Assembly (NCBI GenBank): GCA_021800535.1 | Contig: JAJYYV010000002.1 | Span: 25,620-89,619, forward strand | DNA length: 64,000 nt | Reading direction: 5' to 3' | Origin: a bacterium | Lineage (GTDB): Bacteria; Ratteibacteria; UBA8468; B48-G9; DTJG01 | Shown here: positions 139 to 27,803 of the stretch, piece after piece | Position numbering within the stretch: position 1 is the stretch's first letter | Layout: each line of letters opens with the position of its first letter | The notes under the pieces: generated by a model | The model's database searches: none | The model's input: the letters and a program-made list of their open reading frames with translations, nothing else | What the model was told of the DNA's origin: nothing | Made by a program: the position numbers and the translations under genes

Positions 139-1278
139 TTATAAAAGCTCTTTAAAAAAATCAACAAGGTCTGTTTTTTCCCATGTAAAATCTTTGTCTT
201 CTCTTCCAAAATGGCCATAGGATGCAGTTTTATAATATATTGGTCTTAAAAGATTAAGTTTGTTAATAATTCCTCTGGGAGAAAGGTCTAAGTTTTCTTT
301 TATATGTCTGATAATTTTTTCTTCTTCCACTTTTCCTGTCCCAAACAGGTTAAGCATATATGAAACAGGCTGGGGTTGTCCTATTATATAGGCAATCTGT
401 ATCTGACATCTCTTTGCAAGCCCTGCTGCCACTATATTTTTTGCTATATATCTGGCATAATAAGATGCAGACCTGTCAACCTTTGAAGGGTCTTTTCCTG
501 AAAAACTTCCTCCGCCATGGCTGCCAATTCCACCATAAGTATCAACAATTATTTTTCTTCCTGTAACTCCGGTATCTGCCTGAGGTCCGCCAACAGCAAA
601 ACTTCCAGTCCGATTAATAAAAATATCCATTTTATCTGTTCTATATTTTTCAGGAATAACCTGATTTATAACAAGCCCTGTAAGGTCATCTTTTATTTTT
701 TTCTGGGAAATATCCGGATTGTGCTGCGCCGCCAGAACAACAGAAGTAACTTTTTCAGGAATGTTATCTTTGTATAAAATAGTCACCTGACTTTTCCCAT
801 CAGGTCTTAAATAAGGAAGAACTTTTTCTTTTCTGAGACTTGCCATCTTCATAACAAGATTATGGGCAAGTGAAATAGGCAAAGGCATAAAAGTCTCTGT
901 TTCATCAACTGCATAACCAAACATCATACCCTGGTCTCCTGCGCCGCCTGTATCTACACCCTGGGAAATTTCAGGAGACTGCTGCTGAATAGAGGTTATA
1001 ATCGCTCCTGTCTGGTAATTAAACCCATAAGAATCATCTGTATACCCTATATTTTTCAAAACTTCTCTTGCAATCTCCGGAGCATCAATATGGGCTTTTG
1101 TTGTTATTTCACCTGCAATAAAAATAAGACCTTTGGTTGTTAAAGTTTCACACGCCACTCTCCCATTTTTATCCTGACGAAGAACCTCATCCAAAATAGC
1201 ATCTGAGGTCTGGTCACAGATTTTATCAGGATGCCCTTCTGTAACAGACTCTGATGTAAAAAGATATTCTTTAGCCAT
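139..1278 (-). CDS. metK: S-adenosylmethionine synthetase
   Basis: 379 aa ORF. N-terminal TSESVTEGHPDKICDQ and the GGGSFSGKDPSKVDRSA motif are hallmark MetK signatures. Confidence 0.97.
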   Translation of the reverse strand: MAKEYLFTSESVTEGHPDKICDQTSDAILDEVLRQDKNGRVACETLTTKGLIFIAGEITTKAHIDAPEIAREVLKNIGYTDDSYGFNYQTGAIITSIQQQSPEISQGVDTGGAGDQGMMFGYAVDETETFMPLPISLAHNLVMKMASLRKEKVLPYLRPDGKSQVTILYKDNIPEKVTSVVLAAQHNPDISQKKIKDDLTGLVINQVIPEKYRTDKMDIFINRTGSFAVGGPQADTGVTGRKIIVDTYGGIGSHGGGSFSGKDPSKVDRSASYYARYIAKNIVAAGLAKRCQIQIAYIIGQPQPVSYMLNLFGTGKVEEEKIIRHIKENLDLSPRGIINKLNLLRPIYYKTASYGHFGREDKDFTWEKTDLVDFFKELL

Positions 1279-6850: not shown

Positions 6851-7834
6851 TTATAACTCGGAGCTAAATTCTTTTTTCCCAAGAAGGTCATGCAAATGAA
6901 CAAAACCTTTTATCTTTCCATTTTTCTCTTTTATAATAAGACAGGTGATTTCATATTTTTCCATTATCGCCAAAGCCTGAACAGCAAGTTTATCTTCCTC
7001 TATTTCCTTGGGGTTTGAAACCATACAATCAACAACCTTTTTACATGAAACATCTGGTGTCCTGGCAAGAAACCTTCTTAAATCCCCATCTGTAATTATC
7101 CCTTTAATTTTTCCATTTTTATCTTCAATAAGGGTAAAACCCATATTTTTTTTATTTATCTCTTTTATAGCCTCTGCTAAAAAAACATCCTCATAAACTC
7201 TTGGAATACTTGACCCTGTCTGCATAACATCCTTTACCCTTAAAAGAAGCCGTTTGCCAAGATTTCCTCCAGGATGATAGAAAGCATAATCTTCTTTTTG
7301 AAATCCTTTTAATGTAAGAAGTGTAAAAGCTATTGCATCACCCAAAACAAGAGCTGTAGTAGCACTTGATGATGGAATAATTCCAAAAGGGTCTGCTTCC
7401 TGTATAGGCCCTGTACTTAAAGCAATATCACTTTGAAGAGCCAGGGAACTTTTATTTTCGGAGGTTAAACTGATAATCTTTGCTCCAATTTTCTTTAAAG
7501 AAGGTAGAATTCTTAAAATTTCCGGTGTTTCTCCACTGTTTGATACAGCAATTACTATATCATTTGAACAAACCATGCCAAGGTCCCCATGTATTGCTTC
7601 CCCAGGGTGAAGAAATATTGATGGAGTTCCTGTACTGGCAAATGTAGTAGAGATTTTTTTACCTATAATCCCGCTTTTCCCCATACCTGTCACAACTATT
7701 TTACCTGCGCAATTGTACATCATTTTAACAGCAGAAATAAAACTGTGGTTTATATAATCTTTAAGATTTTCAAGATTTCTTATTTCAATATCCACTATAT
7801 TTTTTGCCTGTTTTATAATCTGTTTATTATCCAT
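6851..7834 (-). CDS. kdsD: arabinose-5-phosphate isomerase (SIS + tandem CBS)
   Basis: 327 aa. SIS motif VVTGMGKSGIIGKK...HPGEAIHGDLGMV with a C-terminal CBS pair. Flanked by kdsA and kdsC. Confidence 0.9.
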   Translation of the reverse strand: MDNKQIIKQAKNIVDIEIRNLENLKDYINHSFISAVKMMYNCAGKIVVTGMGKSGIIGKKISTTFASTGTPSIFLHPGEAIHGDLGMVCSNDIVIAVSNSGETPEILRILPSLKKIGAKIISLTSENKSSLALQSDIALSTGPIQEADPFGIIPSSSATTALVLGDAIAFTLLTLKGFQKEDYAFYHPGGNLGKRLLLRVKDVMQTGSSIPRVYEDVFLAEAIKEINKKNMGFTLIEDKNGKIKGIITDGDLRRFLARTPDVSCKKVVDCMVSNPKEIEEDKLAVQALAIMEKYEITCLIIKEKNGKIKGFVHLHDLLGKKEFSSEL

Positions 7835-17798: not shown

Positions 17799-19028
17799 AT
17801 GAGAATACTTATAATTTCAAATCTTTATCCTCCTTATTATATAGGCGGATATGAAATCGGATGTTATGATGTTGTAGAAGCACTTAAAGCTAAAGGTCAT
17901 GAAATTAAAGTATTAACAAGTAAGTATGGAATAAAAAAAGCCACTATAGAAAAAGATGTATATAGATTATTAGATACAGAATTAGAATGGGAAAATACAA
18001 AATTTTTTAAATCTTTTTTAAATAGATTTAAGTTATTAAAAAAGGAAATTATAAATCCCAGAATATTTAAACATTTATATATATCTTTTAAACCGGATAT
18101 TATTTATGCCTGGAAGATAGAGGGTATTTCAATTTCTATTATTTTATTAGCTCAAAAATTAAATACACCCATATATTTTTATGTTTTTGATACATGGATA
18201 TCACATATAGAAAAAGATTACTGGTACACCTTATGGCATCGTAAATCTAAAAACAAAATTAAACAAATTATTAAAAAAAGTATTTATCCAATTATAAATA
18301 TTTTTATTCCAATTCCAACTGGGTCTTTAATTTTAAATAATGTTCAATTTGCAAGTAATTATTTAAAAAACTATGTAGAAAAATCCGATAAAAAAATAAA
18401 AAAAGGAGAAGTTATATATTGGGGTATAGATATAAATAAATTTTCATATAAATTAAGTGTAAATCATTATCCCAAACTACTTTATGTGGGACAAATCGTT
18501 TATCATAAAGGAATTAATACATTAGTTGAAACAATGAAAATTCTTGTAAAAAAATATGGATATATTTCATTAAAACTTACAATTGTTGGAAAAAGTACAA
18601 AAATTGATTATGTAAAAAGTATACAAAATTTAATACATTCTTATAAATTAGAAAACAACGTTGATTTTTTAGGTTTTATCTATAGAAAACAATTACCTCA
18701 TATTTATCATGAACATGATATTTTAATATTCCCTTCTATTTGGGAGGAACCGTTTGGTATTACTATTATTGAAGCAATGGCATCTGGATTAGCAGTTGTT
18801 GGTACAGCAACAGGAGGAAGTACTGAAATTTTAGAAGATGGAATAAATAGCTTGGTTTTTCAAAAAGAAGATACTGAAAATTGTGCAATGCAAATTAAAA
18901 AACTTTTAGATAAGCCTGCATTGCTTGAAAAAATAAGAATAAATGGAAGAACTACAGTTATAGAAAAATTTAATTTTGAAAATACGATAAAAAAAATAGA
19001 AAATTCATTATTTACAATTATTAATTAG
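17799..19028 (+). CDS. glycosyltransferase family 4 (GT-B)
   Basis: 409 aa. N-terminal MRILIISNLYPPYYIGGYE and the C-terminal EX7E-type region PSIWEEPFGITIIEAMASGLAVVGT. Confidence 0.85.
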   Translation: MRILIISNLYPPYYIGGYEIGCYDVVEALKAKGHEIKVLTSKYGIKKATIEKDVYRLLDTELEWENTKFFKSFLNRFKLLKKEIINPRIFKHLYISFKPDIIYAWKIEGISISIILLAQKLNTPIYFYVFDTWISHIEKDYWYTLWHRKSKNKIKQIIKKSIYPIINIFIPIPTGSLILNNVQFASNYLKNYVEKSDKKIKKGEVIYWGIDINKFSYKLSVNHYPKLLYVGQIVYHKGINTLVETMKILVKKYGYISLKLTIVGKSTKIDYVKSIQNLIHSYKLENNVDFLGFIYRKQLPHIYHEHDILIFPSIWEEPFGITIIEAMASGLAVVGTATGGSTEILEDGINSLVFQKEDTENCAMQIKKLLDKPALLEKIRINGRTTVIEKFNFENTIKKIENSLFTIIN

Positions 19029-19237
19029 TTATATTTGTACTTATACCTAAAAATTATATAGAATTTTATAACAAAGTAATATAATTAAATTTGATAAAAT
19101 TGAATATCTTAAAAACTATTTTACGATATGTTATATCCTGGTTTATATCTCCAAGTATGACCTATTTTTTATATAAACCAATATTTTTATTATCAAACAA
19201 TACAAAGGTAAAAAAACAACATTGTATTTCTTCAGAA

Positions 19238-20374: not shown

Positions 20375-21518
20375 TATTACACCTTTATATGATAAGAAAC
20401 TAACAGGTATAGGTTATACTATATATAACCTTATTAAGTATCTGGCTAAAATTGATACAAATAATCAATATATACTCTTTTCTTATGGCTCTTTTTTTAA
20501 GAATAGAGATAAAGGAAGACTTGAAATCTTAAAAAGCAGAATTCCACAGCAAAAAAATTTTAAACTGGTTTTTTTCAGATTTCCATCAAATTTAAAATTT
20601 ATAAATGAAAGATTTATTCCTTTAAATATTCTAATAGGAAAAGTAGATATTTTTCATGTTCCATATCAATTATATTGTCCTTTTATTGTTGGAGGTAAAA
20701 AAATATTTACCATACATGATATTATTCCTTTTATTAACCCGCAATGGGATACTAATCCTTTACGGTTTAAAAGAGTAATGGCTTTGATTTTTAAAAGAGC
20801 AAATAAGATTATTACAATTTCAGAAAGCAGCAAAAATGATTTAATAAAATATTGTAATATTTTTCCTGATAGAATTACTATTATTCCTAATGGAGTGGAC
20901 CCACATTTTAAATTAATAGAACAAAAAATAAAACAACAAATATTATTGAAATATAATTTAACAAATAATTATATATTTTATACAGGAGAAGTTGTTCCAA
21001 GAAAAAATTTAACAGCACTTTTAAAAGCATTTGAAAGCCTAATTAAAAATAAAATTTATAACCATAAATTAGTTATATCAGGAATTATTCATAAAAATTA
21101 TACTGAGTTTTTTGATACATTAAATAATATGCCTATATCCGTAAAAGAAAATATTATCATAACTGGATATGTTCCCTATGAAGATTTGCCTGCACTTTAT
21201 AATGGGGCAGAAATTTTGGTTTTTCCATCCCTTTATGAGGGTTTTGGACTCCCGGTTTTAGAAGCTATGGCATGTGGATGTCCTGTGATTACTTCAAATG
21301 TTTCTTCTTTGCCGGAAGTTTGCGGAGATGCTGCTATTTTGATTAACCCTGATAATGTAGATGAAATAACAGATGCAATGGAAAGGGTTTTATCTGATGG
21401 AAAATTAAGAGAAGAAATGAAAAGAAAAGGACTGAAAAGGGCAAAAATGTTTTCCTGGGAGAAAGCAGCCAGAGAAACACTACAAGTTTATTACCAAGCC
21501 ACAAATATTTCAAAATAA
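20358..21518 (+). CDS. glycosyltransferase family 4 (paralog A)
   Basis: 386 aa. C-terminal FPSLYEGFGLPVLEAMACGCPVITSN. The last ~100 aa are about 75% identical to the GT4 at 22444-23592. Confidence 0.88.
   Translation: MKIGIDITPLYDKKLTGIGYTIYNLIKYLAKIDTNNQYILFSYGSFFKNRDKGRLEILKSRIPQQKNFKLVFFRFPSNLKFINERFIPLNILIGKVDIFHVPYQLYCPFIVGGKKIFTIHDIIPFINPQWDTNPLRFKRVMALIFKRANKIITISESSKNDLIKYCNIFPDRITIIPNGVDPHFKLIEQKIKQQILLKYNLTNNYIFYTGEVVPRKNLTALLKAFESLIKNKIYNHKLVISGIIHKNYTEFFDTLNNMPISVKENIIITGYVPYEDLPALYNGAEILVFPSLYEGFGLPVLEAMACGCPVITSNVSSLPEVCGDAAILINPDNVDEITDAMERVLSDGKLREEMKRKGLKRAKMFSWEKAARETLQVYYQATNISK
21207..21515 (+). repeat. roughly 300-nt block of high nucleotide identity shared with 23287-23589 (3' ends of two GT4 genes)
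   Basis: A hand alignment of one 78-nt stretch gave about 87% identity. The 5' two-thirds of the two genes are only distantly related. Confidence 0.75.
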
Positions 21519-21676
21519 ATATCCTGAGTTTTCCACTTTCATCTGGATACTCTATAATTCTTTTTTAATATCAAAATTTCTTACATTTTTATACCTATAT
21601 GCCAATAATGTAAGAAAAATGTAATTATTTTTTCACTCTATTGAATATTTTTTAAAAGTATTAAACTAATACCTGT

Positions 21677-21740
21677 GGTATTAATGCGGCTATAGGCTTA
21701 ATCTCTTTTGAAAAAGATGGAATTTATTACTTCATTACTT
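21677..21740 (+). pseudogene. degenerate fragment duplicating the 5' coding end of the GT4 gene at 22444
   Basis: About 85% identity to 22453-22517, with one 1-nt gap. Translates to GINAAIGLISFEKDGIYY versus IAIDAAIGLSSFEKGGIYY. No start codon and no continuation of the ORF. Confidence 0.6.
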
Positions 21741-21766
21741 GACAGATTCCTTACAATATATAAAAT
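21739..21766 (+). promoter_or_regulatory. candidate promoter of the AbrB-PIN cassette
   Basis: TTGACA (21739-21744), a 16-nt spacer, then TAAAAT (21761-21766). The RBS GAGGTG at 21774-21779 precedes the ATG at 21788. Confidence 0.4.
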
Positions 21767-21787
21767 TAATATTGAGGTGAAATTACT

Positions 21788-22021
21788 ATGTTATGTAAAA
21801 AAACATATAAAAATCAGATTACTTTACCAAAAAAAATTATGGATAATTTTAAAAATGTAGAGTATTTTGAAGCAGAATCCAAAAAAGATAGAATTATTCT
21901 AAAACCTGTGGAAATAAGACCAGTATCTCTTCTCACACAAATAAGAAAAAAGATTTCTTCTTTAGGTTTTACTGAAAAAGATATTGAAAAAGCAATATCT
22001 TATGCGAGAAAAAAACGATGA
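21788..22021 (+). CDS. AbrB/SpoVT-type antitoxin
   Basis: 77 aa. N-terminal swapped-hairpin-like segment KNQITLPKKIMDNF...RIILKPVE. 4-nt overlap with the PIN gene. Confidence 0.65.
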   Translation: MLCKKTYKNQITLPKKIMDNFKNVEYFEAESKKDRIILKPVEIRPVSLLTQIRKKISSLGFTEKDIEKAISYARKKR

Positions 22022-22431
22022 ATTCGTTGCCGGTAGTTATAGATACAAATATATTTATTTCTGCTATACTTTTTGAAGGGGAAGTAAACAAACTGGTTTA
22101 TTTATGGCAATGTAATAAAATAAAAATTTTAATGTCTCATGAAATTTTACAAGAGTATATAATGGTACTTTCTTATCCAAAATTCAAATTAAAAAAAAGT
22201 GAAATTGAATATATTATAAAAGAAAATCTGCTTCCTTTTATTGAAGTAATACAAATAAAAACAAAAATAAATCTGATAAAAGATGATATTTCTGACAACA
22301 AATTTCTTTCTCTGGCTATAGATGGTAAAGCAAAATATATTATAAGCGGAGACAAACATTTGCTTTCTTTAAAAAATATTTATAATATTAAAATAATTTC
22401 TGCCAGAGAATTCTTGAACATTATTTATTAA
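22018..22431 (+). CDS. PIN-domain toxin (type II TA)
   Basis: 137 aa. Begins VVIDTNIFISAI (first acidic PIN residue) and ends with DNKFLSLAIDGKAKYIISGDKHL, typical of the PIN_3-type family. Confidence 0.8.
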   Translation: MNSLPVVIDTNIFISAILFEGEVNKLVYLWQCNKIKILMSHEILQEYIMVLSYPKFKLKKSEIEYIIKENLLPFIEVIQIKTKINLIKDDISDNKFLSLAIDGKAKYIISGDKHLLSLKNIYNIKIISAREFLNIIY

Positions 22432-22443
22432 TAAATTTGATAT

Positions 22444-23592
22444 ATGAAAATCGCTATTGATGCGGCAATCGGCTTAAGTTCTTTTGAAAAAGGTGGAATT
22501 TATTATTTATTACCTTATTTTCTCAATACTCTTAGTACATTAGATAAAAAAAATCAGTATGTAATTTTTGGATATTTTTTTAAGAATTATCAAAAAAAAA
22601 TTCAAAATATAAAAATCCCACAGGAGTCTAATTTTTCTTTAAAAACACTTCGCTTACCAGGAGGGTTACTAAGAAATATAGAACAAAATTTACACTTACC
22701 CTTATTAGAATATTTTCTGAAAAATGAAAAAATTTCAGTTTATCATGGTATATCAGGTTCTCGACTTCCTTATTTTAAAAAAATTAAAACAGTCTATACA
22801 GTTCATGATTTAAGCTTTGAAACACATCCGCAATGGTATAAAGAAAAATGGTATAAAGATATTCGCCTGTCAGCAGAAAGAGCTGATATAATTATCAGTC
22901 CCTCTTATTTAACCAAAAAGGATTTAATAAATATATATCATATACCTGAGAATAAAATAAAAGTGGTTTATTGGGGGATAGATACAGATATTTTTTATCC
23001 GGTGAATAAAGAAAAAATTCAAAGAAAAATCATAGATTATTCTCTCCCGGAAAGATTTATTTTAACAATAGTAACTTCTTCCATACAAAGAAAAAATACA
23101 CATAATTTATTAAACGCTTATAAAATTCTTACACAAAATGGTGTAAAAGAAACCCTTGTAATTGTTACAGGAACAGATTACTTAAAAGAAATTATAATGG
23201 AAGTAGCAAAAGAAAAACATTTGGAAGAAAATATAATATGTTATAGCGAAATACCCAAAACAGATTTAACAATATTTTATTCGTTAGCAGAAGTTTTTGT
23301 TTTTCCATCACTTTATGAGGGTTTTGGATTGCCGGTTTTAGAAGCCATGACCTGCGGATGTCCTGTAATTACATCAAATACTTCCTGTTTACCTGAAATT
23401 GTAGATAATGCGGCTATTTTAGTAGACCCTTATAATGCTGAGGAAATAGCAAATGCAATGAAGAAAGTTTTATCTGATGAAAACTTAAGACAACAAATGA
23501 GAAAAAAGGGACTGGAAAGGTCAAAAATGTTTTCCTGGGAAAAAACAGCCAGAGAAACACTGCAGGTTTATTACCAGGCCGCAAATATTTAA
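22444..23592 (+). CDS. glycosyltransferase family 4 (paralog B)
   Basis: 382 aa. C-terminal FPSLYEGFGLPVLEAMTCGCPVITSN...FSWEKTARETLQVYYQAANI closely matches paralog A. Confidence 0.88.
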   Translation: MKIAIDAAIGLSSFEKGGIYYLLPYFLNTLSTLDKKNQYVIFGYFFKNYQKKIQNIKIPQESNFSLKTLRLPGGLLRNIEQNLHLPLLEYFLKNEKISVYHGISGSRLPYFKKIKTVYTVHDLSFETHPQWYKEKWYKDIRLSAERADIIISPSYLTKKDLINIYHIPENKIKVVYWGIDTDIFYPVNKEKIQRKIIDYSLPERFILTIVTSSIQRKNTHNLLNAYKILTQNGVKETLVIVTGTDYLKEIIMEVAKEKHLEENIICYSEIPKTDLTIFYSLAEVFVFPSLYEGFGLPVLEAMTCGCPVITSNTSCLPEIVDNAAILVDPYNAEEIANAMKKVLSDENLRQQMRKKGLERSKMFSWEKTARETLQVYYQAANI

Positions 23593-23634
23593 AAATAAAT
23601 ATTAATAATAATAGTATTATAGTCTACAAATTAT

Positions 23635-25907: not shown

Positions 25908-27803
25908 ATGTGTGCAATATGCGGAATAATTAAAAAAGATGGCAGAATAGAAGACTGGATTTTAAAAAAAATGACAGAAATTATGTCTTATAGAGGCCCT
26001 GATGATGAAGGTTTTTATATCAAAGAAAATGCGGGTTTTGGACATAAAAGATTAAGCATTATTGACCTTAAAACAGGAAGACAGCCTTTTACCAATGAAG
26101 ATAATTCAATACATCTTATATGCAATGGAGAAATATATAACTTTCAGGAGGCAAGAGAACAATTAATAAAAAAAGGCCATAGGTTTGCCACAGGGTCAGA
26201 TAATGAAGTAATAATTCATCTCTATGAAGAAAAAGGAGTTGACTGCCTAAAAGATTTAAGAGGGATGTTTGCTTTTGCTATATGGGATGAAAAAGAAAAA
26301 ACTCTCTTTTTAGCAAGAGACAGACTTGGTAAAAAACCTCTGGTTTACTCTTTATTTAATAATTCTATTATATTTGCTTCGGAAATCAAGGCAATTCTTC
26401 AACATCCTGAAATCAAAAAAGATATTAATCCGGAAAGTATTGATATCTTTTTAAGTTATCAGGCTATACCCTCTCCTTTTACAATATTCAAAAATATAAA
26501 AAAGATTCCGTCTGCCTCATATCTTATATGGAAAAACGGAAATATTACAATTGAAAAATATTGGGATATAAATTTCAACAAAAAGATTAAATTAAAAAAT
26601 ACCATAGAATATGAGGAATTATTATGGGAAAAACTAACAGAAGCAACTAAACTAAGGATGATTTCAGATGTTCCTTTAGGAGCTTTTTTAAGTGGGGGGG
26701 TAGACTCTTCAACTATTGTTGGGATAATGAGTCAGGCTTCGTCTTCTGTAAAAACTTTTTCAATAGGATTTAGTGAAAAGGATTATAGTGAACTAAACTA
26801 TGCAAGAACAGTGGCATCACATTTTGGAACAGAGCATCGGCAGTTTATTGTCACCCCTGATATTATAAAAATCCTTCCTAAACTTGTCTGGTATTATAAT
26901 GAACCATTTGGAGATTCTTCTATGGTTCCTACATACTACATGGCTCAACAAACAAAAAAATATGTGACTGTGGCATTAAATGGCGATGGCGGAGATGAAA
27001 ATTTTGCAGGGTACACAAGATATTGGCAGGCTATTTTTATGCAGAAATTTTTTGGTATGTATATAAAATACCCCAAACAGATTAAAAAAATACTATCTTC
27101 TTTATTGCAAAGCAATAATGTATTTTCCAAAAATAAAATCTCAAAAACTTTACAGTATTTTGAAGAAACAAAAAAATATTACAGAAACAATATTTATTCA
27201 AGATTACTTGTTTCATTCCCAGAATCTAAAAAAGACCAACTATATTCTGTTGATATGAAAGAAAATTTAAAGGATTTTTCTTCTGTAGGCTATTTGCAGG
27301 GAATATGGGAAAAAACTGATAATCTTGATTTTATTGAAAAAATGCTTTATACAGATTTTAATTTTTATATTCCTGAGGTATTGATGGTAAAAATGGATAT
27401 TGCAACAATGTCAAATGCTTTAGAAGCAAGGAGTCCCTTTTTAGACCACCTGTTTATTGAAACTATTGCGCAATTTCCTGCTGAATTGAAATTTAAGAGA
27501 TGGGCATCAAAGTATATTTTGAAACAAAAGCTAAAAAATTTTCTGCCGGAAGAGATTTTAAAAAGAAAAAAAATGGGATTTGGAATTCCTTTGGCTGAAT
27601 GGTTTAGAACCGAAATGAAACACTATATTACTGATAATTTATTAAATGAAAAATGTTTATCCAGGGGATATTTTATTCCTGATGAAATTAAACAAATTGT
27701 TAAAGAACATATTTCAGGACAAACAAATCATTCAGGCCGTTTATGGTTATTGTTAAATCTTGAGTTATGGCATAGAATATTTATAGATGGAGAGAATTTA
27801 TAA
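25908..27803 (+). CDS. asparagine synthase family glutamine amidotransferase (AsnB-like)
   Basis: 631 aa. N-terminal nucleophile context MCAICGI and the PP-loop SGGVDSS in the synthetase domain. Confidence 0.9.
   Translation: MCAICGIIKKDGRIEDWILKKMTEIMSYRGPDDEGFYIKENAGFGHKRLSIIDLKTGRQPFTNEDNSIHLICNGEIYNFQEAREQLIKKGHRFATGSDNEVIIHLYEEKGVDCLKDLRGMFAFAIWDEKEKTLFLARDRLGKKPLVYSLFNNSIIFASEIKAILQHPEIKKDINPESIDIFLSYQAIPSPFTIFKNIKKIPSASYLIWKNGNITIEKYWDINFNKKIKLKNTIEYEELLWEKLTEATKLRMISDVPLGAFLSGGVDSSTIVGIMSQASSSVKTFSIGFSEKDYSELNYARTVASHFGTEHRQFIVTPDIIKILPKLVWYYNEPFGDSSMVPTYYMAQQTKKYVTVALNGDGGDENFAGYTRYWQAIFMQKFFGMYIKYPKQIKKILSSLLQSNNVFSKNKISKTLQYFEETKKYYRNNIYSRLLVSFPESKKDQLYSVDMKENLKDFSSVGYLQGIWEKTDNLDFIEKMLYTDFNFYIPEVLMVKMDIATMSNALEARSPFLDHLFIETIAQFPAELKFKRWASKYILKQKLKNFLPEEILKRKKMGFGIPLAEWFRTEMKHYITDNLLNEKCLSRGYFIPDEIKQIVKEHISGQTNHSGRLWLLLNLELWHRIFIDGENL

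What the first reader, a model, noticed from the sequence alone, without database searches (positions are those of the whole stretch)
21677..22517. AbrB-PIN toxin-antitoxin cassette lies exactly between two copies of the 5' end of the downstream GT4 gene
Seen in sequence: 21677-21740 (ggtattaatgcggctataggcttaatctcttttgaaaaagatggaatttattacttcattactt) aligns with 22453-22517, the coding sequence just after the ATG of the GT4 gene at 22444. Identity is about 85% with one single-base gap. The upstream copy has lost the start codon and translates to GINAAIGLISFEKDGIYY, against IAIDAAIGLSSFEKGGIYY in the intact gene. Everything between the copies (21741-22452) is a self-contained unit: a TTGACA/TAAAAT promoter that begins at the very end of the left repeat, a GAGGTG RBS, the AbrB antitoxin and the PIN toxin. 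Inference: the TA module entered at the gene start by an event that duplicated about 65 nt of the target. It now supplies a promoter upstream of the GT4 gene.
Basis: seen in the sequence. Interest (0 to 1): 0.62.

Follow-up and report, generated by a model that had tools for sequence, protein, structure and literature searches.

The report
Toxin-antitoxin insert with duplicated gene start
A small, horizontally acquired toxin-antitoxin gene pair sits directly in front of a sugar-transferase gene, and a decayed 47-60 base copy of that gene's start lies on its far side; this is a recombination scar of a kind already known for other selfish gene pairs, and it recurs at other toxin-antitoxin loci in this genome.

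Summary
Window 21679-21738 matches 22455-22513 (nt 12-70 of the GT4 gene) at 52/60 with one gap. The local score is 78, against a maximum of 33 for 2000 random window segments. Both ends of the match are sharp.

Between the copies lies a conserved two-gene module: an AbrB/MazE-fold antitoxin and a PIN_3 toxin (TIGR00305) with intact catalytic residues.

Two corrections:
- The interval also holds the GT4 ATG and its first 11 nt, so this is not a clean target duplication.
- The last 13 nt of the "left repeat" (ATTACTTCATTAC) belong to the cassette's own conserved operator, identical in a homologous cassette elsewhere. The joint therefore lies in a microhomology.

Best reading: an illegitimate or homology-facilitated recombination scar, closest to the "insertion with long target duplication" described for restriction-modification genes, followed by loss of the outer copy's start.

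No empty site can be shown. All 20 contigs of this species are identical, and the nearest GT4 homologue is 59% identical.

Similar 36-60 nt relics mark four other TA loci in this 2 Mb genome. The scan has reported this pattern before on other DNA, mostly Omnitrophota.

The parts
21519..21678 (.). AT-rich 160-nt spacer after the upstream GT4 paralogue (GT4-A). It has no ORF and no significant similarity to anything in the genome or in the fetched loci.
   Evidence: No gmd remnant was found and no terminator is predicted.
21679..21725 (+). Non-coding relic copy of nt 12-58 of the downstream GT4 gene (41/47 identical). It has no start codon and carries changes at residues conserved across all the orthologues examined here (D6N, G17D).
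   Evidence: It is closer to this genome's own GT4-B than to any orthologue (score 78 against 45 or less).
21726..21754 (+). Cassette operator-like region with the layout ATTAC-TTC-ATTAC-TTGACAGATTC-CTTAC. The first 13 nt overlap the end of the repeat (GT4 has ATTA-TTTATTAC there), so the joint lies in a microhomology.
   Evidence: The 20-nt stretch ATTACTTCATTACTTGACAG is identical in the homologous cassette L016. [A/C]TTAC repeats also occur in L051 and L015.
21739..21766 (+). Sigma-70-like promoter TTGACA-16-TAAAAT, matching 11 of 12 positions.
   Evidence: It is one of three plus-strand sites of this quality in the 64-kb window, and all three lie just upstream of gene starts. TTGACAG is conserved in three of the four homologous cassettes compared (L016, L049, L051).
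21775..21780 (+). GAGGTG ribosome-binding site, 7 nt before the antitoxin ATG.
   Evidence: Read directly from the sequence. GGAGGTG is conserved in all four homologous cassettes.
21788..22021 (+). Antitoxin of 77 aa with a SpoVT/AbrB/MazE-fold N-terminus (KNQITLPKKI).
   Evidence: Pfam PF04014 matches this member only weakly (E = 0.002, 18.4 bits, below the 24.7 cut-off). Four of five aligned homologues match, with best E = 9.8e-6. It is the conserved partner upstream of PIN_3 homologues.
22018..22431 (+). PIN_3 toxin of 137 aa. It overlaps the antitoxin gene by ATGA. The family-invariant residues D9, E46, D90/D93 and D112 are all present.
   Evidence: PF13470 E = 2.4e-20. TIGR00305 scores 77.5 bits against a cut-off of 29.15. 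Invariant columns come from alignment A1.
22432..22443 (+). 12-nt spacer TAAATTTGATAT between the PIN stop and the GT4 ATG. Its origin (cassette or host) cannot be assigned.
22444..23592 (+). Intact GT4 glycosyltransferase (GT4-B, 382 aa). Nt 12-70 (22455-22513) form the right copy of the repeat.
   Evidence: PF00534 E = 2.6e-37. Orthologues are 50-56% identical (43% for L012, the best hit in the window's own family) and share the N-terminal (I/L)D...EK(G/R)GI motif.

Best explanation
The AbrB-fold/PIN_3 pair, from about 21726 to 22431 with its own operator and promoter, is a horizontally acquired type II toxin-antitoxin cassette. It was spliced in directly upstream of the GT4 gene by recombinase-independent recombination.

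Its left end was joined to nt ~58-62 of a copy of the GT4 5' region. The joint lies in a short stretch (AATTT.ATTA..TT.ATTAC) that the cassette's operator happens to share with GT4 codons 19-24. Its right end lies 12 nt before an intact GT4 start.

The net result resembles the 'insertion with long target duplication' known for restriction-modification genes. It could equally arise from homology-facilitated illegitimate recombination, with a donor fragment that already carried cassette plus GT4 start.

The outer copy was redundant. It later lost its first 11 nt and everything upstream, probably together with whatever gene once lay between the two GT4 paralogues, and it has since decayed to 87% identity.

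The cassette promoter now lies upstream of the GT4 gene with no predicted terminator between them, so it probably contributes antitoxin-regulated transcription of the downstream glycan genes.

Shown: the repeat, the sharp boundaries, the cassette boundaries, the microhomology, the conservation and patchy distribution of the cassette, and recurrence of such relics at other TA loci.

Inferred: the direction (insertion rather than deletion), the order of events, the mechanism, and promoter use.
For: - The repeat is far above chance and has sharp ends.
- The relic resembles this genome's own GT4-B (AAIG, score 78) far more than any orthologue (45 or less), so it derives from this lineage's gene.
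- The relic carries replacements at residues conserved across all the orthologues examined here (D6N, G17D) and a spread of codon positions (1st:1, 2nd:2, 3rd:3). This fits decay of a dead copy.
- DNA-level homology to four other cassettes starts at window 21726-21759 and ends inside the PIN 3' end. In L016 the 20 nt ATTACTTCATTACTTGACAG are identical.
- The only indel and one mismatch of the 'repeat' fall in this cassette-type stretch.
- Cassette homologues occur as the same two-gene unit next to unrelated genes and in several phyla.
- Within the window's own family, only this genome and its genus-mate have any PIN_3 match.
- Orthologous loci read GT4-A - gmd - GT4-B - (GT4-C) - asnB, or carry a GHMP kinase or GT2 upstream, and never a TA pair.
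- A genome-wide scan found about 11 'relic-type' local repeats, 5 of them at TA modules, although the genome shows only 2 PIN_3, about 4 PIN and 2 ParE matches.
- No transposase, integrase or inverted repeats fit into the 0.7-kb unit.
- Literature: long target duplications of more than 30 bp flank RM genes that lack mobility genes (PMC2853133). How TA systems integrate is stated to be unknown (PMC7167474).
Against: - No empty site is available. The 20 contigs that carry the identical GT4 protein show the same gene layout with the cassette present, and the three whose DNA was fetched are 100% identical to the window. The nearest GT4-B homologue in 5.8 billion proteins is 59% identical, and the nearest PIN is 65%.
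- The left copy lacks nt 1-11 and any upstream homology (3/11 matches). A one-step target duplication therefore does not fit, and a second event must be assumed.
- The microhomology argument rests mainly on one homologous cassette (L016), with partial support from three others.
- 13% divergence means the event is old, so intermediate steps are lost.
- Promoter-like sites of this quality are not enriched in the window overall (7 against 4.5 +/- 2.1 in shuffles).
Confidence: 0.6

Rival explanations
1. One-step replicative template switching (MMBIR-like). A stalled or broken replication end copied GT4 nt 12-58, switched at the ATTA microhomology to cassette DNA, and then switched back to just upstream of the GT4 start. 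This would create all three junctions in a single complex event with no separate deletion.
For: It explains why the relic is an isolated internal patch with two sharp ends. Similar isolated patches of 36-60 nt sit at other TA loci. At C71 the patch ends in an 8-nt ATGATAAA shared with the mscL start.
Against: No microhomology is evident at the left end of the relic. The process is not documented for acquisition of foreign DNA in bacteria (own knowledge). Sequence alone cannot separate it from the two-step model.
Confidence: 0.15
2. The relic has nothing to do with the arrival of the TA cassette. It is the last remnant of an older tandem copy or pseudogene of GT4-B, or a stray gene-conversion patch in a locus that recombines often. 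The cassette merely lies next to it.
For: The locus shows other intragenomic exchanges. The 3' ends of GT4-A and GT4-B are 70% identical in protein, against 49-54% in relatives. A 76-nt relic of GT4-A lies upstream of the GT9 gene.
Against: The relic abuts the cassette's conserved left end with no spacer, and the two overlap in a microhomology. Relics are strongly over-represented at TA modules genome-wide. No further GT4-B-like sequence exists between GT4-A and the cassette.
Confidence: 0.12
3. The TA pair is the last surviving cargo of a larger integrative element. That element would have entered by site-specific recombination into the 5' end of the GT4 gene and carried a replacement gene start, as phage e14/21 does at icd. 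The relic would then be the displaced original start (attL).
For: Another TA-like unit in this genome (HTH_3-SocA_Panacea plus a 121-aa protein) is bracketed by a 38-nt duplication of part of a tRNA-like sequence, which looks like an att scar. TA modules are known to stabilise such elements (PMC7167474).
Against: There is no integrase or other element gene nearby, and only 0.7 kb lies between the copies. The displaced copy lacks the start codon it should retain. The junction is explained by the cassette's own operator sequence. The repeats at different TA loci share no common core.
Confidence: 0.08
4. Chance similarity in AT-rich DNA.
For: The genome is 30% G+C.
Against: The score is 78, against a maximum of 33 in 2000 controls. 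No local repeat of 45 bits or more appeared in three Markov-3 shuffled genomes.
Confidence: 0.01

Closest known systems
Insertion with long target duplication of restriction-modification gene complexes (Nobusato et al. 2000, as cited in Furuta, Abe and Kobayashi 2010, NAR 38:2428, PMC2853133)
   Same: A small addiction-type gene unit without transposase or integrase is flanked by direct repeats longer than 30 bp that are made of local host sequence. The repeat sequence is unique to the locus and its length varies between loci.
   Different: The cargo is a toxin-antitoxin pair, not an RM system. The outer repeat is not continuous with the native flank, because it lacks the first 11 nt of the gene. 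No empty-site genome is available to show a single target copy. The repeats have diverged to 87%.
Homology-facilitated illegitimate recombination during natural transformation (described for Acinetobacter, Streptococcus pneumoniae and Pseudomonas stutzeri; own knowledge, not checked in the library)
   Same: Homology on one side (here the GT4 gene) combines with a microhomology joint on the other (here ATTA and neighbouring bases). This can add foreign DNA next to a conserved gene without any recombinase of its own.
   Different: Competence of this uncultured bacterium is unknown. HFIR usually deletes recipient DNA rather than duplicating it. No donor is identified.
VapBC-like type II toxin-antitoxin modules with a PIN_3 (TIGR00305) toxin and a SpoVT/AbrB/MazE-fold antitoxin
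   Same: The antitoxin gene comes first and overlaps the toxin gene. The PIN acidic residues are intact. There is a promoter with repeated motifs that could serve as an operator. The phylogenetic distribution is patchy.
   Different: The PIN_3 subfamily has no solved structure detectable by sequence. The antitoxin is below Pfam's threshold in this member.
TA insertions into operons, such as dinB-yafNOP and relA-mazEFG in E. coli (reviewed in PMC7167474)
   Same: A TA pair is inserted co-directionally between genes of an operon, so the neighbours and the TA share transcription.
   Different: Here the TA lies upstream and may drive the neighbour. In the E. coli cases no flanking gene-fragment duplication is described in the text read.

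Membership tests
Type II TA module, PIN_3 toxin with AbrB/MazE-fold antitoxin | Toxin matches the PIN_3 / TIGR00305 models above their curated thresholds. | tested here: met
   PF13470 scores 73.9 bits against a cut-off of 27. TIGR00305 scores 77.5 bits against 29.15.
Type II TA module, PIN_3 toxin with AbrB/MazE-fold antitoxin | The conserved acidic residues of the PIN active site are present. | tested here: met
   D9, E46, D90, D93 and D112 are invariant in an 18-sequence alignment that includes the window protein.
Type II TA module, PIN_3 toxin with AbrB/MazE-fold antitoxin | A small upstream partner gene, overlapping or abutting the toxin gene, is conserved as a pair in homologues. | tested here: met
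   The two genes overlap by ATGA at 22018-22021. Partners of 77-80 aa at 64-71% identity lie upstream of PIN homologues in four other loci.
Type II TA module, PIN_3 toxin with AbrB/MazE-fold antitoxin | The antitoxin has a SpoVT/AbrB/MazE DNA-binding fold. | tested here: inconclusive
   The window member scores 18.4 bits, below the 24.7 cut-off. Four of five homologues match PF04014, with best E = 9.8e-6. There is no PDB match by profile.
Type II TA module, PIN_3 toxin with AbrB/MazE-fold antitoxin | The toxin arrests growth and the antitoxin neutralises it. | not testable with these tools
   This needs expression in a laboratory strain.
Insertion with long target duplication (Furuta et al. 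2010 criteria) | The inserted unit is shorter than 20 kb and has no mobility genes. | tested here: met
   About 0.72 kb lies between the copies, holding only the two TA genes.
Insertion with long target duplication (Furuta et al. 2010 criteria) | The flanking direct repeats are longer than 30 bp. | tested here: met
   The repeat is 47 nt securely and 60 nt nominally.
Insertion with long target duplication (Furuta et al. 2010 criteria) | The repeat aligns to a single copy at the empty site of a related genome with collinear flanks. | not testable with these tools
   No close relative exists in the collections. The species' own contigs are identical, and the next homologues are 59% (GT4) and 65% (PIN) identical.
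Insertion with long target duplication (Furuta et al. 2010 criteria) | Both repeat copies are continuous with the native flanks of the target. | tested here: not met
   The right copy is continuous on both sides. The left copy is continuous on neither: 3/11 matches upstream, and the cassette lies downstream.
Transposon or IS insertion | A transposase, terminal inverted repeats and a short (2-14 bp) target duplication. | tested here: not met
   There is no further ORF in the unit, no terminal inverted repeats, and the repeat is 47-60 nt.
Site-specific integrative element with gene-end replacement (e14/icd type) | An integrase is encoded next to the att site, and the displaced gene end keeps its terminal part. 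| tested here: not met
   There is no recombinase ORF between 17.8 and 27.8 kb. The displaced copy lacks the start codon and upstream region.

The most novel reading that the evidence does not exclude
In Omnitrophota-like genomes, small toxin-antitoxin cassettes may spread by a recurrent route that needs no recombinase. Short chance homologies between the cassette ends (here the antitoxin's ATTAC operator repeats) and the ends of host genes would guide integration, leaving a 40-70 nt duplicate of the host gene end as a signature. This would give a concrete, testable mechanism for how TA modules integrate into chromosomes, which a recent review calls unelucidated.
Probability: 0.25. Interest if true: 0.7.

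Novelty: new member of a known kind. Interest (0 to 1): 0.42.

Why it matters
How chromosomal toxin-antitoxin modules move and integrate is an acknowledged open question (PMC7167474).

This locus gives a junction read at base resolution. A host-gene relic is fused to the conserved operator end of a TA cassette within a microhomology, and there is no recombinase. The same kind of relic marks four other TA loci in the same 2 Mb genome.

That supports extending the 'long target duplication' mode of mobility from restriction-modification genes to TA modules.

It also suggests that surface-glycan operons of these bacteria can come under control of a TA promoter.

Taken alone, without an empty site, this locus is one more example rather than a demonstration.

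Tried and rejected
- **Empty-site search.** I searched 40 relatives, 5.8 billion proteins and all contigs carrying the identical GT4 protein. There was no near relative and no cassette-free allele.
- **Remnant of gmd or another gene in the 160-nt spacer.** None was found. The spacer matches nothing.
- **Extension of the repeat beyond 60 nt.** Rejected: the flanks are at shuffle level.
- **Other copies of the cassette in the genome.** There are none. The second PIN_3 pair is only 37% identical.
- **Empty site for the tyrS-BrnTA-relic-mscL locus as a proxy.** Relatives do not have mscL next to tyrS. BrnT-like genes were not found in 51 other genomes of the order.
- **Terminator or RNA structure in 21505-21745 and around the GT4 start.** Nothing significant was found.
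- **Codon-position test of 'foreign allele versus in-situ decay'.** With only 6 differences, this is suggestive of decay but not decisive.
- **The CAATAT-N9-ATATTG inverted repeat over the -10 box as operator.** I dropped this in favour of the ATTAC repeats, which are conserved across cassettes.
Full report
**1. Observation**

Window 21679-21738 and 22455-22513 form an imperfect direct repeat, 52/60 identical with one 1-nt gap. Its local alignment score is 78. By comparison, 2000 random 120-nt segments of the window score 18 +/- 3, with a maximum of 33. The repeat finder reports the pair as family D3.

In a self-BLAST of the whole 2.0 Mb assembly the pair scores 69.8 bits. Three Markov-3 shuffled genomes gave no local repeat of 45 bits or more, direct or inverted, 150-5000 nt apart.

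The similarity ends abruptly on both sides. Per-10-nt identity falls from 8-10 to 1-6, and the flanks align no better than shuffles (p = 0.47 and 0.64).

The right copy is nt 12-70 of a GT4 glycosyltransferase gene at 22444-23592 (PF00534, E = 2.6e-37). The left copy is non-coding. It reads ...*TNTCGINAAIGLISFEKDGIYYFIT*, with a stop upstream and no start.

**2. What lies between the copies**

- 21788-22021 encodes a 77-aa protein. It matches the MazE/SpoVT-AbrB family only weakly by itself (E = 0.002, below threshold). Four of five aligned homologues match, with best E = 9.8e-6.
- 22018-22431 encodes a PIN_3 protein (PF13470, E = 2.4e-20; TIGR00305, 77.5 bits against a cut-off of 29.15). It has all the family-invariant residues: D9, E46, D90, D93 and D112.
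- The two genes overlap by ATGA.
- Upstream lie TTGACA-16-TAAAAT at 21739-21766 (11 of 12 positions) and GAGGTG at 21775-21780.
- In the whole window only three plus-strand sites reach 11/12, and all three lie just upstream of gene starts. The total count is not above shuffles (7 against 4.5 +/- 2.1).
- The interval also contains a 12-nt spacer and ATGAAAATCGC, the first 11 nt of the GT4 gene.

The orthologues begin MKIAIDA, MKICIDA, MRIAIDA or MNI(C/V)(I/L)D. The right copy therefore carries the native gene start. The left copy is an isolated internal fragment.

**3. Boundaries of the cassette**

Homologous pairs at 60-65% protein identity occur in other genomes next to unrelated genes, such as an AraC regulator and TrmO. 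Their DNA aligns with the window from 21726-21759 to about 22412.

Their promoter regions share [A/C]TTAC repeats around the -35 region (TTGACAG in three of the four) and GGAGGTG. In the closest one, L016 from genome G031, the 20 nt ATTACTTCATTACTTGACAG are identical to window 21726-21745.

The GT4 gene has ATTA-TTTATTAC there, and the only indel and one mismatch of the repeat fall in this stretch. The securely GT4-derived relic is 21679-21725 (41/47). The joint between relic and cassette lies in a microhomology of 4 to about 18 nt (AATTT.ATTA...).

This is the signature of an illegitimate or short-homology joint. It is not the signature of a transposase or integrase reaction.

**4. Context**

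The names that sources give to the homologues point to Omnitrophota. The assembly is 2.0 Mb in 86 contigs, 91% complete and 30% G+C.

In relatives of another family the locus reads GT4-A - gmd - GT4-B - (GT4-C) - asnB, with gmd abutting or overlapping GT4-B. Other relatives have a GHMP kinase or a GT2 gene upstream of GT4-B. None has a TA pair there.

This genome has no gmd orthologue, and the 160-nt spacer holds no remnant of one.

The slot upstream of GT4-B is therefore variable, but the ancestral state of this lineage is unknown:
- The best GT4-B homologue anywhere is 59% identical, and the best PIN is 65%.
- The only genus-mate is 62% complete and lacks the locus.
- The 20 contigs that carry the identical GT4 protein show the same gene layout with the cassette present, and the three whose DNA was fetched are 100% identical to the window.

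An empty site cannot be shown.

**5. Origin of the relic**

The relic is much closer to this genome's own GT4-B (score 78) than to any orthologue (45 or less). It shares AAIG with it, where the closest orthologues (the gmd-type loci) have AGIG. Its six differences fall on codon positions as 1st:1, 2nd:2 and 3rd:3. They include replacements of two residues conserved across all the orthologues examined here (D6N, G17D).

This fits decay of a dead copy of this lineage's gene better than a functional foreign allele. The numbers are too small to be decisive.

**6. Mechanism**

A simple target duplication would leave the outer copy continuous with the gene's start and upstream DNA. Here nt 1-11 and everything upstream are missing (3/11 matches).

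The most economical readings are:
[quoted passage not shown] That deletion would have removed the redundant start together with whatever gene lay between the two GT4 paralogues.
- (b) One complex template-switching event.

Sequence alone cannot separate these.

A site-specific element of the e14/icd type is unlikely. There is no recombinase, there is no room for one, and the junction is explained by the cassette's operator.

An unrelated pseudogene remnant is unlikely because relic and cassette are fused without a spacer.

**7. Recurrence in the same genome**

I listed local direct repeats blind to annotation, using these criteria: 30-120 nt long, 150-5000 nt apart, 45 bits or more, and not part of larger repeats. 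This gave about 11 loci of "relic type", where one copy lies in a gene and the other does not. Five of them involve TA modules:
- this locus;
- a 51-nt (92%) relic of the HTH_17 antitoxin's 5' part, 203 nt upstream of the only other PIN_3 pair (C16);
- a BrnT/BrnA-like pair between the 3' part of tyrS and a 44-nt (86%) relic of it, which ends in an 8-nt ATGATAAA shared with the mscL start (C71);
- a relic of a fused MNT-HepT gene (C23);
- an HTH_3-SocA_Panacea unit bracketed by 38 nt of a tRNA-like sequence (C61).

The three TA families searched give only 2 PIN_3, about 4 PIN and 2 ParE matches in this genome. The association is therefore strong, although my estimate is rough.

The BrnT-like gene was not found in 51 other genomes of the order, which supports horizontal acquisition.

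**8. Comparison with what is known**

The closest described phenomenon is "insertion with long target duplication" of restriction-modification genes. There, repeats longer than 30 bp flank small units without mobility genes (PMC2853133). Two of its criteria are met here, one cannot be tested (the empty site), and one is not met (continuity of the outer repeat with the native flank).

Earlier notes of this scan describe the same architecture at TA cassettes in other genomes, several of them Omnitrophota. I treat those as leads, not as evidence.

**9. Function now**

The PIN stop is 12 nt from the GT4 ATG. No terminator or significant structure is predicted between GT4-A and the GT4 gene. The GT4 gene is therefore probably transcribed both from upstream and from the autoregulated TA promoter. 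This is inference.

**Verdict**

The finding is a further, well-resolved example of a known kind of scar, with moderate interest.

Noticed in passing
G000:C16:26850-27718 (own genome, outside the window): The only other PIN_3 pair of the genome (HTH_17 antitoxin at 27012-27302, PIN_3 at 27302-27718) has a 51-nt, 92% identical relic of nt 42-92 of its own antitoxin gene. The relic lies 203 nt upstream, in non-coding DNA, and has sharp ends.
   Followed up: partly
L033 (= G000:C71) 206-249 and 1008-1050: A BrnT/BrnA-like pair (291-874, minus strand) lies between the 3' part of tyrS and a 44-nt (86%) relic of that part. The relic ends in ATGATAAA, which also supplies the start codon of mscL. BrnT-like genes were not found in 51 other genomes of the order.
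   Followed up: partly
G000:C61:43337-44955 (own genome): A 38-nt (92%) duplication of part of a tRNA-like sequence brackets a 1.6-kb unit. The unit encodes an HTH_3-SocA_Panacea antitoxin-like protein and a 121-aa protein with no family match. It looks like an att scar without an integrase.
   Followed up: partly
G000:C23:3809-3908 and 7498-7790 (own genome): A two-piece relic of the 5' region and upstream DNA of a fused MNT-HepT (Polbeta + HepT-like) gene lies 3.7 kb away, at the end of a 961-aa gene.
   Followed up: no
window 19010-19085 and 21054-21128: A 76-nt (75%, 49 bits) copy of an internal part of GT4-A lies in the gap between the first GT4 gene and the GT9 gene. This is another relic-type repeat in the same glycan locus.
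   Followed up: no
window 21182-21525 and 23262-23603: The 3' ends of GT4-A and GT4-B are about 80% identical in DNA and 70% in protein. The N-terminal parts are 29% identical, and the same two paralogues in relatives are 49-54% identical at their 3' ends. The similarity runs about 10 nt past the stop of GT4-B. This fits gene conversion and was already noted by the scan.
   Followed up: partly
window 21519-22443 compared with L003, L005, L006 and L011: Relatives carry GDP-mannose 4,6-dehydratase (gmd) between the two GT4 paralogues. This genome has no gmd orthologue at all (best hit 27%). It has instead an extra convergent NTP-transferase gene after GT4-B.
   Followed up: partly
G000:C45:3-2780 (own genome): 84-nt (90%) direct repeats bracket a 2.7-kb unit that carries a serine-recombinase-like gene and a DNA methyltransferase-like gene. 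This is a likely small mobile element.
   Followed up: no
window 21726-21754; L016, L051, L015: [A/C]TTAC repeats around the -35 box are conserved among homologous AbrB/PIN_3 cassettes from different genomes. They are a candidate operator for the antitoxin.
   Followed up: partly
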